Source: Gemmatimonadales bacterium (GTDB lineage Bacteria; Gemmatimonadota; Gemmatimonadetes; Longimicrobiales; Gaopeijiaceae). Taken from it: 30,199 nucleotides of DNA. Under the pieces are notes generated by a model, which was given only the letters and a program-made list of their open reading frames with translations, was not told the origin of the DNA and searched no databases. This document shows positions 7,816 to 12,483 of the stretch, in pieces. The DNA lies in assembly GCA_041309685.1 (NCBI GenBank), contig JBFYZD010000202.1:1-30199 (forward strand), in the 5' to 3' direction. The stretch's first letter is position 1. The number at the start of each line of letters is the position of its first letter. Position numbers and translations under genes: made by a program.

Positions 7816-10332
7816 ATGAAGGTCGTCAACCGCACCCCGTTCCAGTTCGCCCCCTTCGCCGGGAGGCTCACCTTCCCCGGGGCCACGCTCACGCTCATCG
7901 TGAAGGGAACCTTCGACCTCGCCAACGGGGGCACGGCCACGCCGGCCGAGGAGCAGCAGCACGTCACCGGCGACCTCTTCCATCCTGACGACCCGGACAT
8001 GGCGGGCAGCTGCCGGTACGAGAGCGACTTCGCCTATTTCAAGCCTCGGGCGGACCTCCTGCTGGCGGGGTCCTGCCACACCCCCGGAGGCCGACCCGCC
8101 CAGGAATGCATGGTCACCTTCCAGGTGGGAGACCGGTCCCGCAGGCTGCTCGTCTCGGGGGACCGGTTCTGGGTGGGACCCCCGGGCCTGCGCACCATCT
8201 CCGATCCCGAGCCTTTCACCCGGATGGAGCTCCGTTTCGAGAACAGCTACGGGGGCAACGGCTTCCAGGCCAACCCCGTGGGCAAGGGCTACCGGAGCCA
8301 GGCCCGGGCCCTGCCGAACATCGAGGACCCGGACAGGCTCATCGACTCCCCGGGGAGCCGGTCCGGGCCCTCCGGCTTCGGCCCCCTGGGAAGGACGTGG
8401 GAGGAGCGGGCCGCCATGCTGGGCACGTACAAGGGCCGCTGGGCGGAGGAGCGCTGGCCCTGGTTCCCCGAGGACTTCGACTACGCCCATTTCAACGCCG
8501 CCCCCCGGTCGATGCAGGTGGAGGGATACCTGCGGGGGGACGAGAACCTCCACTTCGAGAACCTCCACCCCGAGCATGCCCGCTACTCGGCCCGCCTCCC
8601 CGGCTTGAGGGTACGCTGCTTCCTCCATGACCGGGTGACCGACCAGGAGGAGGAGACCCGGTTTCGCGAGGTTCCCCTGGGGCTCGACACCCTCTGGGCC
8701 GACATGGATGCGGAGAAGCTGGTCCTGGTCTGGCGCGGCTGGACGGAGGTCCGGTCGGACGATTTCGAGGAAGTCCAGCACGTCTTCCTCATGGCCGAGT
8801 CCGTGCACACCCCCCCCACCTCCATCGAGCTCTGCCACGAGCTCTTCCTTGCCACCCTGGCCCAGGCCCAGCCGAGGGTGGAGGAGACCCCCGAGCCCCC
8901 AGCGGAGGAGCCGATCCCGGAGTCGGGGCCCGCCCCGTCCGATCTCCCGGCCGGAAGCGCGGGTCTCCGGAAGGAGGTGGAGGCGCAGGTGGACGCCCTC
9001 CTTGCCAGGGCGGGCATCCGTCTGGACACGCTCCCGCCCCAGGCTCGCGAGACAGCCCGGATGGAGAGGAACCGCATCCTGGACGCGGTGACGGATGCCG
9101 ACCCGGCTCGGGCCAGGGCCCGGGAGATGGAAGCGGCACGGCTCCGGATGTCGGAGGCCCTCGCCCGGGTGGGGATCGACCCGAATCATCTCCCCCCCGT
9201 GAGCGAGGCGGCCGCCCGCGAGCAGGCCCGGCTGCTCCGGGAGATGGGCGTGGAGGACGTGGATCGCGTCTTCCGGAATCCCACCGTGGCCGGCTTCCTT
9301 TCCATCATGGCCGCCCTCCTCCCCAAGGTCGGCATCGATCCGGAAGACCTCACGCCTCTGATCGCCCAGGCGAAGAAGCACAGGGCGCAGACGGAGCCGC
9401 CCGGCGGGGAGGCGGAAGGCCCGGCCGAAGCGCCCCCGGAGGGAGAAGGCCCCCGCCCCTGGACCCGGGAGAGAGTCGCGGAGAGGGCGGCCCGGGGTGG
9501 GTCCTTCGCCGGAGAGGATCTACGGGAGCTCGACCTCTCGCATCTGGAGCTGAAGGGGATCGACTTCTCGGGAGCCGACCTGAGCGGCGCCGTTCTCGCT
9601 GAGGCCGATCTGACGACCGCTCGTCTGAGCCAGGCCTGCCTGGCCGGCGCCGACCTGACCCGGGCGAAGCTGCCGGGGGCGGTGCTCACCGGCGCGAAGC
9701 TGGCCAATGCCGTCTTCGTGGACGCCGAGATGGCCGGGGCCGTTCTGGACAGGGTCCAGGCCGCCGGGGCCCTTTTCGTCGCGGCCGATCTGGCCGGGGC
9801 CCGGCTCACCGACAGCGACTTCCCCGGAGCCGACTTCTCGCGGGGCACGCTGAGCGGGACCGATTTCAGCGCCTCAAACCTGACCGACGCCTTCATCGAG
9901 GGCGCCGTCTGCGCCGACGCCACCTTCGAGGAGGCCGACCTGACGCGGTTGCGGGCCTCGGAGGGGACCGACTTCTCCGGGAGCTCCTTCGTGAAGTCGT
10001 GGGGCCCGGAGTCCATCTGGGGGAAGGCCAACCTGGCCGGAGCCGACTTCTCCTTCGCCCGGATGGAGGGCGCCAGCTTCATGGGCGCGATCCTGAAGAA
10101 CGCCGATCTCCATGCTGCGGACATGAAGCGCGCCCGCTTCATCAAGGCCGACCTGGAAGGGGCCAGGCTCGTGGAGATGAACCTCTTCGAGGGGAGCATG
10201 GAGAAGGCGAACCTCACCGAGGCGGACCTGACCGGATCGAACATGTACGGGGTGGAGTTCCACGGCGCCGTCCTCTCCGGGGCGACACTCACGGGAACGA
10301 ACCTCCGCATGACCACCCTGCAGAAGGTGTGA
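7816..10332 (+). CDS. DUF2169-domain protein (T6SS effector adaptor family) fused to C-terminal pentapeptide repeats, 838 aa
   Basis: RBS GAGGAG lies 6 nt before ATG 7816 (MKVVNRTPFQFAPF…TLIVKGTFDL). The N-terminal ~350 aa resemble the DUF2169 proteins usually encoded directly 3' of vgrG. An Ala/Arg/Glu-rich helical linker follows, with three ~30-aa repeats ('(A/V)GI(R/D)xxxLxP…'). The C-terminal ~300 aa are perfect A(D/N)LxG pentapeptide repeats (ADLSG AVLAE ADLTT ARLSQ ACLAG ADLTR …). Confidence 0.75.
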   Translation: MKVVNRTPFQFAPFAGRLTFPGATLTLIVKGTFDLANGGTATPAEEQQHVTGDLFHPDDPDMAGSCRYESDFAYFKPRADLLLAGSCHTPGGRPAQECMVTFQVGDRSRRLLVSGDRFWVGPPGLRTISDPEPFTRMELRFENSYGGNGFQANPVGKGYRSQARALPNIEDPDRLIDSPGSRSGPSGFGPLGRTWEERAAMLGTYKGRWAEERWPWFPEDFDYAHFNAAPRSMQVEGYLRGDENLHFENLHPEHARYSARLPGLRVRCFLHDRVTDQEEETRFREVPLGLDTLWADMDAEKLVLVWRGWTEVRSDDFEEVQHVFLMAESVHTPPTSIELCHELFLATLAQAQPRVEETPEPPAEEPIPESGPAPSDLPAGSAGLRKEVEAQVDALLARAGIRLDTLPPQARETARMERNRILDAVTDADPARARAREMEAARLRMSEALARVGIDPNHLPPVSEAAAREQARLLREMGVEDVDRVFRNPTVAGFLSIMAALLPKVGIDPEDLTPLIAQAKKHRAQTEPPGGEAEGPAEAPPEGEGPRPWTRERVAERAARGGSFAGEDLRELDLSHLELKGIDFSGADLSGAVLAEADLTTARLSQACLAGADLTRAKLPGAVLTGAKLANAVFVDAEMAGAVLDRVQAAGALFVAADLAGARLTDSDFPGADFSRGTLSGTDFSASNLTDAFIEGAVCADATFEEADLTRLRASEGTDFSGSSFVKSWGPESIWGKANLAGADFSFARMEGASFMGAILKNADLHAADMKRARFIKADLEGARLVEMNLFEGSMEKANLTEADLTGSNMYGVEFHGAVLSGATLTGTNLRMTTLQKV

Positions 10333-10341
10333 AGGCGCGCC

Positions 10342-11919: not shown

Positions 11920-11943
11920 AAGACCCGGTTCATCCTGTGCAGC

Positions 11944-12483
11944 ATGAAGGGATGCAAACTGGAGGGGATGGATCTGTCCGGATGCGAGCTGACGGGCTCG
12001 GACCTGGGAGGGGCGCGCCTGGCGGGAGCCGATCTCAGCGGCGCGACCCTGCGGCAGGCGACCCTCAAGAAGGCGGGCCTTCGGGGAGCCGACCTCTCGG
12101 GTGCCGTCTGCCATACGGTGGACTTCGCCGAGTGCGACCTGAGCGAGGCGGAGCTCGTCAGGGCGGACCTGAGATGCTCCAGGTTCGAGAAGGCCTCCCT
12201 GCGCGATGCCGACTTCACCGCCGCGCGCCTCGACCGGGCGGCCTTCAACCACGCCGACTGCCGGGGCGCGGTCTTCCGAAACGCGCATATGCCCTATTCC
12301 AATCTGTCCCACGCCAACCTGGAGGCCGCCGATTTCTCGTCGGCCGAAATGGAGCAAGCCAATCTCCACCGGGTGAGGGATCACCATACGAGCTGGCTGG
12401 GAGCCGGGATGAAGTGGGTCAAGCGAACCGACCACGACCGTGCCGAAGCGGAGGACTGGAAGCCACCCCAATCCCCGGAATAG
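11944..12483 (+). CDS. Pentapeptide-repeat protein (179 aa)
   Basis: MKGCKLEGMDLSGCELTGSDLGGARLAGADLSGATLRQATLKKAGLRGADLSG… are pentapeptide repeats. It lies 24 nt after the previous stop and co-directional. No strong SD, so the start is uncertain. Confidence 0.65.
   Translation: MKGCKLEGMDLSGCELTGSDLGGARLAGADLSGATLRQATLKKAGLRGADLSGAVCHTVDFAECDLSEAELVRADLRCSRFEKASLRDADFTAARLDRAAFNHADCRGAVFRNAHMPYSNLSHANLEAADFSSAEMEQANLHRVRDHHTSWLGAGMKWVKRTDHDRAEAEDWKPPQSPE

What the first reader, a model, noticed from the sequence alone, without database searches (positions are those of the whole stretch)
7816..12483. About 950 residues of pentapeptide repeats in three consecutive genes, the first fused to the DUF2169 adaptor
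Genes 2-4 of the island are dominated by A(D/N)LxG units: the C-terminal ~300 aa of the DUF2169 fusion, the whole 525-aa protein and the 179-aa protein. Pentapeptide repeats fold into a rigid right-handed quadrilateral beta-helix (Rfr fold). Together the three genes could encode tens of nanometres of beta-helical rod.

In a spike-loading context this suggests a structural role: a sheath or extension around the VgrG needle or the effector, or a DNA-mimic shield. A classical small chaperone seems less likely. In the T6SS literature, DUF2169 has been implicated as an effector adaptor in Agrobacterium; the repeat-protein partners have no known role.

Separately, the fusion's Ala/Arg/Glu-rich linker carries three degenerate ~30-aa repeats (…AGIRLDTLPPQARETARMERNRIL… / …VGIDPNHLPPVSEAAAREQARLLREM… / …VGIDPEDLTPLIAQAKKHRAQ…), encoded around 8995-9400. 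The repeats look like a reiterated binding motif.
Basis: partly seen in the sequence, partly recalled or inferred. Interest (0 to 1): 0.68.

Follow-up and report, generated by a model that had tools for sequence, protein, structure and literature searches.

The report
Known T6SS spike-tip chaperone genes
These pentapeptide-repeat genes are the accessory chaperones (TvpAB and TvpB, also called TagAB/TagB) that other bacteria need to assemble a type VI secretion spike tip, so the finding is real but its function was published between 2021 and 2026. The supposed third gene is the tail of the second gene, cut off by a single in-frame stop codon.

Summary
The repeats are real. Pfam Pentapeptide E-values are 6e-49, 9e-74 and 1e-34, and about 163 in-phase units give roughly 815 residues rather than 950.

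The gene order is vgrG, DUF2169-linker-PRP, PRP, DUF3540, DUF4150 (PIPY). This is the published "synteny type C" or class III Tvp system, known as TagAB/TagB/TagC/TagD in Burkholderia. In that system TvpAB and TvpB enfold the TvpC-PAAR tip, and then the VgrG-PAAR tip, as non-secreted chaperones (EMBO J 2026; JBC 2025; Plants 2021). Its "structure around the needle" idea is roughly right, and the DNA-mimic idea is not supported.

Two corrections:
- The 525-aa and 179-aa ORFs share one frame and are separated by a single TGA. Read through, the 713-aa product aligns end to end with single TvpB proteins in 16 relatives, and 55 of 61 related loci have one large PRP gene.
- The linker repeats are three 53-residue helix-loop-helix units (hhalign E 1e-9 to 5e-13). 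They are conserved in 38 of 84 relatives.

One thing seen in passing: VgrGs of this clade carry a hydrophobic, transmembrane-like insertion that co-occurs with the triple linker repeat.

Verdict: a new member of a known kind, of low interest.

The parts
5202..7784 (+). vgrG (860 aa). It is the spike protein of an orphan vgrG island. Its C-terminal extension carries a transmembrane-like hydrophobic two-helix insertion at aa ~672-731.
   Evidence: Pfam Phage_GPD 2.3e-87 and Phage_base_V 2.7e-13. NCBIfam TIGR03361 2.3e-161. Hydropathy scan.
7816..10332 (+). tvpAB / tagAB homologue (838 aa). It is made of a DUF2169 domain, a helical linker and a pentapeptide-repeat beta-helix.
   Evidence: Pfam DUF2169 3.5e-91 and Pentapeptide 6.4e-49. 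PDB 8vth_A E 6.4e-23. Foldseek TM 0.81 to 8vth_A. phmmer E 1e-45 to B. savannae TagAB-5. A GAGGAG Shine-Dalgarno sequence lies upstream.
7816..8865 (+). DUF2169 (TvpA) domain, aa 1-350. It is the PIPY/PAAR-binding chaperone domain.
   Evidence: Pfam match aa 24-307. The AF2 beta-sandwich is at pLDDT mostly 80-96. 8vth_A match.
8971..9390 (+). Three tandem 53-residue helix-loop-helix repeats in the linker, centred on G(I/L)Dxx(x)LPP. R1 is aa 386-426, R2 is aa 444-479 and R3 is aa 494-525.
   Evidence: hhalign between family sub-alignments gives probabilities of 96-98% and E-values of 4.5e-13, 7.6e-10 and 1.8e-9. G400, D455, P460 and E469 are invariant in 30 homologues. AF2 helices are 379-398/408-426, 430-451/464-476 and 482-505/513-526. 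A repeat HMM finds 3 copies in 38 of 84 relatives.
9496..10332 (+). Pentapeptide-repeat beta-helix of TvpAB, aa 561-838. It has about 50 units, or about 12.5 coils.
   Evidence: (pLDDT 94-98).
10342..11919 (+). tvpB, N-terminal 525 codons. It comprises an N-terminal cap, PRP block 1 (aa ~43-125), a conserved non-repeat insert (aa ~121-176) and PRP block 2 (aa ~178-525). It ends at an in-frame TGA.
   Evidence: Pfam Pentapeptide 9.4e-74. Single-sequence AF2 model. Colinear alignment with full-length relatives.
11917..11919 (+). In-frame TGA that interrupts tvpB. Relatives have D, E, G, N or K at this column.
   Evidence: The repeat register is unbroken across it.
11944..12483 (+). tvpB, C-terminal 179 codons. 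It is the C-terminal half of a canonical TagB/TvpB and includes the conserved C-terminal cap (ANLHxVxD...W.GA...TD...AEAEDW.PP).
   Evidence: BLASTP gives a gapless 176-aa alignment at 36% identity, E 1e-27, to residues 178-353 of B. savannae TagB-5. phmmer E 3.7e-36. There is no Shine-Dalgarno sequence before ATG 11944.
12530..13456 (+). tvpC / tagC homologue (DUF3540, 308 aa from ATG 12530; the ORF opens at GTG 12440). By homology it is a VgrG-mimicking trimer.
   Evidence: Pfam DUF3540 2.5e-25, matching profile positions 93-199. phmmer E 3e-10 to B. savannae TagC.
13470..13877 (+). Small PAAR-like DUF4150 protein (135 aa) with a PIPY motif (PVPIPYPN) and no effector domain.
   Evidence: Pfam Tox-PAAR-like 1.4e-36. 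The motif is visible in the translation. phmmer E 5.7e-33 to B. savannae TagD.
13909..14724 (+). Alpha/beta-hydrolase-like protein (GSSMGG motif). It is the last gene of the island and a candidate cargo effector.
   Evidence: Pfam hits are weak and below threshold: UPF0227 1.5e-3 and Abhydrolase_6 9.7e-3. There is no PDB sequence match. No homologue occurs in 80 related loci.

Best explanation
Window 7816-12483 encodes the accessory chaperone pair of a class III Tvp system. The same system is called DUF2169 'synteny type C' and, in Burkholderia, TagAB/TagB. It belongs to an orphan vgrG island.

Gene 1 is TvpAB. It has a DUF2169 domain, three 53-residue helical hairpins and a pentapeptide beta-helix. 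Genes 2 and 3 are one long-form TvpB of 713 codons, interrupted by an in-frame TGA.

The mechanism is inferred by homology to the Serratia marcescens system:
- The DUF2169 domain covers the hydrophobic face of the small PIPY-type PAAR protein (13470-13877).
- The linker helices clasp the middle of the trimeric beta-prism. They first clasp the VgrG mimic TvpC (DUF3540, 12530-13456) in a pre-complex, and then VgrG itself.
- The two pentapeptide beta-helices close around the tip as a cap or 'seat belt'.
- The chaperones stay in the cell when the spike fires.

What is shown here is the domain content, the sequence homology to TagAB-5, TagB-5, TagC and TagD, the conserved synteny and the predicted folds. 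Complex formation, the order of assembly and non-secretion are inferred.

The state of tvpB cannot be settled. My split is about 45% a real, recent nonsense mutation whose two halves may still assemble, about 30% an assembly or sequencing error, and about 25% an inactivated gene.
For: - Domains: DUF2169 3.5e-91, Pentapeptide 6e-49, 9e-74 and 1e-34, DUF3540 2.5e-25, Tox-PAAR-like 1.4e-36, VgrG 2.3e-87.
- Homology to an annotated Burkholderia savannae TagAB-5/TagB-5/DUF3540/DUF4150 cluster: E-values of 1e-45, 3.7e-36, 3e-10 and 5.7e-33. The 179-aa ORF aligns gaplessly to the C-terminal half of TagB-5.
- Structure: the DUF2169 model matches crystal structure 8vth_A (TM 0.81, E 1.5e-17). The PRP domain matches Rfr-fold structures.
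- Synteny: of 61 related loci that are complete from the DUF2169 gene to DUF3540, 55 have the fused TvpAB plus one large PRP gene (603-913 aa, median 677), then DUF3540 and a PAAR-like gene.
- One gene, not two: same frame, one TGA, unbroken repeat register, colinear alignment with 16 full-length relatives, and the 8 codons after the stop still conserved (KTRFILCS against KTEFILCS).
- Published function: PMC13373197, PMC11883445, PMC8747328 and PMC13584744.
Against: - No T6SS core genes lie in the 30-kb window. The neighbours are MacB/FtsX-type permeases and peptidases, so the cognate machine is unseen.
- tvpB is interrupted, and ATG 11944 has no Shine-Dalgarno sequence, so the system may be inactive.
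- TvpB here is twice the length of the characterised ones (713 aa against about 350 aa). The triple linker repeat is not detectable in Burkholderia or Pantoea TvpAB. The Serratia model may therefore not transfer in detail.
- The DUF3540 match covers only the C-terminal half of the Pfam profile.
- No multimer prediction could be run.
Confidence: 0.85

Rival explanations
1. The TGA at 11917-11919 is an assembly or sequencing error, or a minority allele fixed in a MAG consensus. The organism would then make one intact 713-aa TvpB.
For: The 8 codons between the stop and ATG 11944 are still conserved coding sequence. The repeat register is intact. No Shine-Dalgarno sequence has evolved before the second ORF. 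Every other island gene is intact. 55 of 61 relatives have a single gene.
Against: Single-base substitutions are uncommon errors in assembled contigs. No independent copy of this sequence could be found to compare: the closest contig ends inside tvpB, and the metagenome scan gave only generic PRPs at 33% identity or less.
Confidence: 0.3
2. tvpB is a genuine pseudogene and the orphan island is decaying, so the repeat proteins have no current function in this organism.
For: There is an in-frame stop in a gene that is essential in Serratia. Neither half has both the N-terminal and the C-terminal cap of a canonical TagB. No ribosome-binding site precedes the second half. No T6SS core genes are nearby.
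Against: There is only one lesion. Nothing has decayed downstream of it, and the other six genes are intact. Splits of PRP modules into separate genes do occur naturally in this family: TvpA | PRP in L001, L030, L037 and L071, and a TvpB in three pieces in L080.
Confidence: 0.25
3. The pentapeptide proteins are secreted structural parts (a rod or sheath extension on the spike) or are effectors themselves, like the T3SS pentapeptide effectors PipB and PipB2.
For: Weak NCBIfam similarity to PipB and PipB2 (E 1e-16 to 3e-39). The proteins are large.
Against: All those scores are far below the family cut-offs (95-135 bits against 274-354) and reflect only the shared repeat. TvpAB and TvpB were never detected in Serratia secretomes. 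The published model places them around the tip, not on it.
Confidence: 0.05
4. The pentapeptide proteins are DNA mimics that protect gyrase or shield DNA, in the manner of Qnr, MfpA and AlbG.
For: They share the Rfr fold. The net charge is mildly negative: -16, -14 and -5.
Against: Qnr and MfpA NCBIfam scores are 38-112 bits against cut-offs of 240-500. The sizes (278, 525 and 179 aa, in one case fused to DUF2169) are unlike the roughly 200-aa dimeric Qnr proteins. The genes hold an invariant position between vgrG and DUF3540/PAAR in more than 55 loci across many phyla.
Confidence: 0.02

Closest known systems
Serratia marcescens Db10 class III Tvp system (VgrG1, TvpAB, TvpB, TvpC, Paar1; Monlezun, Earl & Coulthurst, EMBO J 2026, PMC13373197)
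   Same: The gene order and domain set are the same: vgrG, DUF2169+PRP fusion, PRP protein, DUF3540, and a small DUF4150 PAAR without an effector domain.
   Different: - TvpB here is about 713 codons with an N-terminal extension and an internal insert, and it is split by a stop.
- The linker has three detectable 53-aa repeats.
- The island is orphan, not inside a T6SS core cluster.
- It ends with an alpha/beta-hydrolase-like gene.
- No Serratia sequence was available, so no direct sequence comparison was made.
Burkholderia T6SS-5 TagAB-5/TagB-5/TagC-5/TagD-5 (Shalom et al. 2007, as cited; annotated copy on B. savannae plasmid pMSMB0266)
   Same: Direct sequence homology for all four proteins (E 1e-45, 3.7e-36, 3e-10 and 5.7e-33). 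TagB-5 and the 179-aa ORF share the same C-terminal cap. The associated VgrG also has a hydrophobic C-terminal segment.
   Different: TagB-5 is 354 aa and TagC is 246 aa. The repeat HMM finds no linker repeat in TagAB-5. The Burkholderia genes lie inside a complete T6SS cluster.
DUF2169 'synteny type C' (Sachar et al., JBC 2025, PMC11883445) and the DUF2169 crystal structure 8VTH
   Same: Multidomain DUF2169 with a C-terminal PRP extension, a PRP gene downstream, DUF3540 and a PIPY-type DUF4150. This arrangement accounts for about 37% of DUF2169 genes. The DUF2169 model superposes on 8vth_A at TM 0.81.
   Different: 8VTH is a single-domain DUF2169 protein from Vibrio xiamenensis, which encodes the class II hallmark DUF6484. 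It has no linker and no PRP.
Burkholderia glumae bglu_2g07420 / bglu_2g07410 (Kim et al., Plants 2021, PMC8747328)
   Same: A DUF2169-PRP fusion followed by a PRP-only protein. Both the PRP region and the PRP gene are needed for T6SS-dependent virulence.
   Different: This is a eukaryote-targeting system in a plant pathogen. No sequence comparison was made here.
Np275/Np276 of Nostoc punctiforme (PDB 2J8K), two adjacent pentapeptide genes crystallised as a fusion
   Same: A pentapeptide beta-helix encoded as two adjacent ORFs that form one continuous helix when joined. It matched the TvpAB repeat domain, not the split tvpB.
   Different: It has no link to T6SS. It is offered only as an analogy showing that a split Rfr helix can be viable (my own knowledge of that entry).

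Membership tests
Class III Tvp system / DUF2169 synteny type C / TagAB-TagB-TagC-TagD | DUF2169 (TvpA) domain protein encoded next to vgrG | tested here: met
   Pfam DUF2169 3.5e-91, with vgrG immediately upstream. 8vth_A E 6.4e-23 and TM 0.81.
Class III Tvp system / DUF2169 synteny type C / TagAB-TagB-TagC-TagD | Pentapeptide-repeat domain fused to the C terminus of the DUF2169 protein | tested here: met
   Pentapeptide 6.4e-49 at aa 561-838. AF2 beta-helix at pLDDT 94-98.
Class III Tvp system / DUF2169 synteny type C / TagAB-TagB-TagC-TagD | Separate pentapeptide-repeat protein (TvpB/TagB) encoded directly downstream | tested here: met
   It is present at 10342-12483 but interrupted by an in-frame TGA. 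The C-terminal half is homologous to TagB-5, E 1e-27.
Class III Tvp system / DUF2169 synteny type C / TagAB-TagB-TagC-TagD | DUF3540 protein (TvpC/TagC) | tested here: met
   Pfam DUF3540 2.5e-25, above the 27.9-bit cut-off at 90 bits. Only profile positions 93-199 are matched. E 3e-10 to B. savannae TagC.
Class III Tvp system / DUF2169 synteny type C / TagAB-TagB-TagC-TagD | Small DUF4150 PAAR-like protein with a PIPY motif and no effector domain | tested here: met
   Tox-PAAR-like 1.4e-36. The protein is 135 aa and carries the PVPIPYPN motif.
Class III Tvp system / DUF2169 synteny type C / TagAB-TagB-TagC-TagD | TvpAB-TvpB-TvpC-PAAR pre-complex, replacement of TvpC by VgrG, and requirement for firing | not testable with these tools
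   This needs multimer prediction or experiments. It is known only for S. marcescens.
Class III Tvp system / DUF2169 synteny type C / TagAB-TagB-TagC-TagD | A cognate T6SS core machine in the same genome | tested here: inconclusive
   No core genes lie in the 30-kb window. The rest of the genome is not available.
Pentapeptide repeat (Rfr) fold | Tandem A(D/N)LXX units with a hydrophobic centre every 5 residues | tested here: met
   About 163 in-phase units, against shuffled means of 2-16 per protein. Pfam E-values.
Pentapeptide repeat (Rfr) fold | Right-handed quadrilateral beta-helix | tested here: met
   This rests on prediction only. The AF2 models have one strand per 5 residues. Foldseek matches HetL, Np275/276, Qnr, MfpA and AlbG at probability 1.00.
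Qnr/MfpA DNA-mimic pentapeptide proteins | Score above the NCBIfam family cut-off | tested here: not met
   The best scores are 38-112 bits, against cut-offs of 240-500.
PipB/PipB2 T3SS pentapeptide effectors | Score above the NCBIfam family cut-off | tested here: not met
   59-135 bits, against cut-offs of 274 and 354.

The most novel reading that the evidence does not exclude
In this environmental clade, the three 53-residue helical hairpins of the single-chain TvpAB linker form a pseudo-threefold collar, with one repeat per protomer of the trimeric spike. Together with the double-length TvpB, they would be an adaptation for shielding three transmembrane-like hydrophobic hairpins that the VgrG of this clade carries as an insertion in its C-terminal prism. 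This would be an Eag-like chaperoning of a membrane-active 'evolved' VgrG.

The published Tvp paper does not mention any repeat or symmetry in the TvpAB helices.

Evidence so far:
- The repeats are homologous and conserved.
- 28 of 30 loci with the triple repeat have a VgrG segment with 19-residue Kyte-Doolittle hydropathy of at least 1.6, against 4 of 28 loci with zero or one repeat. These loci are not phylogenetically independent.
- The insertion sits at one alignment position.
Probability: 0.3. Interest if true: 0.5.

Novelty: new member of a known kind. Interest (0 to 1): 0.22.

Why it matters
For the field this adds little. The gene set, its synteny class and a tested assembly model are already published, and the authors already state that Acidobacteriota, Planctomycetota, Myxococcota and Thermodesulfobacteriota homologues fit class III.

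The useful points are practical:
- Annotation pipelines and readers will count a third pentapeptide gene here that is really the tail of tvpB.
- The environmental clade has a TvpB twice as long as the studied ones, and a triple-repeat linker.
- That linker co-occurs with a hydrophobic insertion in VgrG. This gives a concrete and cheap multimer-modelling test of what the extra chaperone mass is for.

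Tried and rejected
- The look-up of encoding contigs with the 525-aa protein and with P0001 found nothing on record. 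The source organism stays unknown. MacB/FtsX permease neighbours of the duplicated orphan (ADOP) type and 69% GC suggest Acidobacteriota or Gemmatimonadota; that assignment is an inference from my own knowledge.
- The homology search with the 525-aa protein was swamped by generic pentapeptide proteins and did not recover orthologues.
- A query made of the three non-repeat TvpB segments found one 88-aa hit. No orthologue MSA was therefore available for a TvpB model.
The 525-aa piece was modelled from a single sequence only. Its last 40 residues have low confidence, which is weak support for an unnatural end.
- A metagenome scan for near-identical tvpB, meant to check the TGA, returned only relatives at 33% identity or less. 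The closest TvpAB relative (64-69% identity) sits on a contig that ends 240 nt into tvpB.
- The plasmid tblastn with the DUF2169+linker query hit only the DUF2169 domain. The one locus inspected, on a B. contaminans plasmid, has DUF2169 followed directly by a polymorphic toxin and no PRP or DUF3540 gene.
- NCBIfam has no model that names these proteins.
- Selenocysteine or programmed read-through at the TGA was considered and rejected without a dedicated test, because relatives have D, E, G, N or K and never Cys at that column.
- Model coordinates are not exposed, so the geometry of the three hairpins could not be measured.

Full report
**What is in the sequence**

The window has about 69% G+C. 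On the + strand it carries a compact co-directional island:
- a VgrG gene at 5202-7784;
- an 838-aa ORF at 7816-10332;
- a 525-aa ORF at 10342-11919;
- a 179-aa ORF at 11944-12483;
- a DUF3540 ORF, with ATG at 12530 and end at 13456;
- a 135-aa PAAR-like ORF at 13470-13877;
- a 271-aa alpha/beta-hydrolase-like ORF at 13909-14724.

Pfam confirms each assignment:
- Phage_GPD, 2.3e-87;
- DUF2169, 3.5e-91, plus Pentapeptide, 6.4e-49, in the 838-aa protein;
- Pentapeptide, 9.4e-74 and 1.2e-34, in the next two ORFs;
- DUF3540, 2.5e-25;
- Tox-PAAR-like (DUF4150), 1.4e-36.

The PAAR-like protein carries the PIPY motif (PVPIPYPN) that defines this PAAR variant (PMC11883445). The rest of the window holds three MacB/FtsX-type permeases, a Gate-domain membrane protein, an M14 peptidase and a VanY peptidase. 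There are no T6SS core genes, so this is an orphan vgrG island.

**Checking the observation**

The pentapeptide repeats are far beyond chance. Counting hydrophobic centres spaced by five residues gives about 50 units in the fusion, 84 in the 525-aa ORF and 29 in the 179-aa ORF. Shuffled sequences give means of 16, 13 and 2. That is about 163 units, or about 815 residues, rather than about 950.

An AlphaFold2 model of the fusion, built on a 30-sequence alignment, has one short strand every five residues from 565 to 830 at pLDDT 94-98. Foldseek matches that part to HetL, Np275/276, Qnr, MfpA and AlbG. It matches the N-terminal domain to the only DUF2169 crystal structure, 8vth_A, with TM 0.81 and E 1.5e-17. 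A sequence search gives E 6.4e-23 to the same structure.

A single-sequence model of the 525-aa ORF shows two beta-helical blocks, at 43-125 and 178-485. They are separated by a low-confidence insert, and the last 40 residues are poorly formed.

At roughly 4.8 A per 20-residue coil, the total is about 20 nm of beta-helix. That figure uses the established Rfr geometry, from my own knowledge. The helix lies in at least three separate blocks, not in one rod.

**Three ORFs, two genes**

The 525-aa and 179-aa ORFs are in the same reading frame. They are separated by a single TGA (11917-11919) and eight codons.
- Translated through the stop, the repeat register continues without a break as one 40-unit run.
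- The 713-residue product aligns colinearly, from the N-terminal cap to the C-terminal tail, with single proteins of 660-850 aa from 16 related loci. Those proteins have D, E, G, N or K at the stop column.
- The eight 'intergenic' codons are still conserved: KTRFILCS here against KTEFILCS in L003.
- The 179-aa piece aligns without gaps (36% identity, E 1e-27) to residues 178-353 of the 354-aa TagB-5 of Burkholderia savannae, including the C-terminal cap. It is therefore the back half of a canonical TagB, while the N-terminal cap lies in the 525-aa piece.
- GGAGG-type Shine-Dalgarno sequences precede tvpAB, tvpC and the PAAR gene, but none precedes ATG 11944.

Across 61 related loci that are complete from the DUF2169 gene to DUF3540:
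- 55 have the fusion followed by exactly one large pentapeptide gene (603-913 aa, median 677);
- four have the fusion itself split into DUF2169-linker and a 344-aa PRP;
- one has the second gene in three pieces;
- one has the order swapped.

I could not find an independent copy of this sequence to tell whether the TGA is real.

**The linker repeats**

Each unit is a helix, a G(I/L)Dxx(x)LPP turn and a second helix.
- In a 30-sequence family alignment, G400, D455, P460 and E469 are invariant, and many flanking positions are nearly so.
- Profile-profile comparison of the three sub-alignments gives probabilities of 96-98% and E-values of 4.5e-13, 7.6e-10 and 1.8e-9.
- A repeat HMM finds three copies in 38 of 84 TvpAB relatives, one copy in 22, and none in 24. 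The group with none includes Burkholderia TagAB-5 and Pantoea TvpAB.

The triple repeat is thus a feature of one large environmental clade.

**What it is**

The arrangement is known under three names.
- Shalom et al. 2007 named the Burkholderia genes tagAB, tagB and tagC (cited); the fourth gene is tagD.
- Sachar et al. (JBC 2025, PMC11883445) showed that DUF2169 chaperones PIPY-type DUF4150 domains. They defined 'synteny type C' as a DUF2169-PRP fusion, a PRP gene, DUF3540 and DUF4150, accounting for about 37% of DUF2169 genes.
- Kim et al. (Plants 2021, PMC8747328) showed that both the PRP region of the fusion and the separate PRP gene are needed for B. glumae virulence.
- Monlezun, Earl and Coulthurst (EMBO J 2026, PMC13373197) showed in Serratia marcescens that TvpAB, TvpB, TvpC and Paar1 are each essential for the VgrG1 pathway.

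The Serratia work also gives a model. [quoted passage not shown] The chaperones are not secreted. The authors state that homologues from Acidobacteriota, Myxococcota, Planctomycetota and Thermodesulfobacteriota fall into the same classes.

The window's proteins are directly homologous to an annotated TagAB-5/TagB-5/DUF3540/DUF4150 cluster, with E-values of 1e-45, 3.7e-36, 3e-10 and 5.7e-33. Relatives found here span Acidobacteriota, Planctomycetota, Desulfobacterota, Latescibacterota, Ignavibacteria, Verrucomicrobiota, Gemmatimonadota and Gammaproteobacteria.

**How it most likely works**

The mechanism is inferred from the Serratia model.
- DUF2169 covers the hydrophobic face of the small PAAR protein.
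- The linker helices clasp the prism of TvpC and then of VgrG.
- The two pentapeptide helices close the cap.
- The cap is released before or at firing.

The differences from the studied systems are these:
- TvpB is twice as long (about 713 aa against about 350 aa), with a conserved N-terminal region and a conserved non-repeat insert.
- TvpC is longer (308 aa against 202-246 aa).
- The linker has three repeats.
- The island is orphan and ends with a hydrolase-like gene that has no homologue in the 80 related loci.

**Rivals**

- A DNA-mimic role and a secreted-effector role are both rejected. The family scores are far below their cut-offs, the synteny is invariant, and Serratia TvpAB and TvpB are not secreted.
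- The open question is the status of tvpB. It could be a real nonsense codon with a tolerated split, an assembly error, or a pseudogene.

**Seen on the way**

The VgrG of this island has two transmembrane-like hydrophobic helices (aa ~672-695 and ~706-731) inserted in its C-terminal extension, ahead of a beta-rich tip of about 130 aa. VgrGs of related loci have an equivalent insertion at the same alignment position.

The insertion co-occurs with the triple linker repeat. It is present in 28 of 30 triple-repeat loci, against 4 of 28 loci with zero or one repeat (Mann-Whitney p 3e-9). The loci are not phylogenetically independent, so that p-value overstates the evidence.

One testable idea follows: the three hairpins and the longer TvpB may shield three hydrophobic hairpins of the VgrG trimer. 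The Tvp paper does not mention repeats or symmetry in the TvpAB helices.

**Verdict**

The finding is a real, well-delimited feature, but it is a new member of a known and recently characterised kind. Interest is low.

Noticed in passing
window 7215-7394 (VgrG aa ~672-731): VgrG carries a transmembrane-like hydrophobic two-helix insertion in its C-terminal extension: FLAVLIPGIVGGLSLVLMGASTGF (19-residue hydropathy 2.27) and a second helix (1.79). About 130 beta-rich residues follow. Related VgrGs have an equivalent insertion at the same alignment position. It co-occurs with the triple linker repeat of TvpAB (28 of 30 loci against 4 of 28), but the loci are not phylogenetically independent.
   Followed up: partly
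window 13909-14724: The last gene of the island is an alpha/beta-hydrolase-like protein with a GSSMGG nucleophile-elbow motif. Its Pfam hits are weak and below threshold. It has no PDB sequence match and no homologue in 80 related loci. No obvious immunity gene follows, because the next gene is on the opposite strand. It may be a cargo effector.
   Followed up: partly
window 10342-10480 and 10700-10870 (TvpB aa 1-47 and ~121-176): Long-form TvpB proteins share a conserved non-repeat N-terminal region (F.NFGK.L...E.VL.K...GESLAG) and an internal insert (P..IK.SP..LEL.KQDPS..D..SL..GLEDLGISE.DF.PG). The 350-aa TagB/TvpB of Burkholderia and Pantoea do not appear to have these. Their role is unknown.
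   Followed up: no
window 169-2454 (+), 2525-5404 (-), 17850-20804 (+): Three large MacB_PCD + FtsX permeases of the duplicated orphan type lie in one 30-kb window. Together with 69% GC they hint at Acidobacteriota or Gemmatimonadota. The taxon of the window could not be established.
   Followed up: no
window 15999-17505 (-): Adjacent M14-type carboxypeptidase/AstE-like and VanY-type D-Ala-D-Ala carboxypeptidase genes lie downstream of the island on the opposite strand. They are peptidoglycan-peptide enzymes, and any relation to the island was not examined.
   Followed up: no
window 12440-12530: The DUF3540 ORF opens at GTG 12440 and overlaps the end of the 179-aa ORF by 44 nt. A GGAGGAG Shine-Dalgarno sequence precedes ATG 12530, so the shorter 308-aa product is the likelier one.
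   Followed up: partly
L059 1283-6686 and 9974-15925; L067 893-6808 and 9977-15901: Two Desulfobacterota MAG loci each carry two complete class III modules (TvpAB, TvpB, TvpC, PAAR) in tandem. One module has a short linker and the other a long one.
   Followed up: no
L066 9419-13559; L001, L030, L037, L071; L080: The family shows natural variation in how the PRP modules are encoded. The PRP gene lies ahead of the fusion in a Gemmatimonadota MAG. The fusion is split into DUF2169-linker and a 344-aa PRP in four loci. TvpB is in three pieces in one Ignavibacteria MAG.
   Followed up: partly
The exact 525-aa, 179-aa and hydrolase products are absent from the 15-billion-protein collection, although the fusion and the PAAR protein from the same contig are present. 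The gene caller behind that collection presumably drew different boundaries for these ORFs.
   Followed up: no
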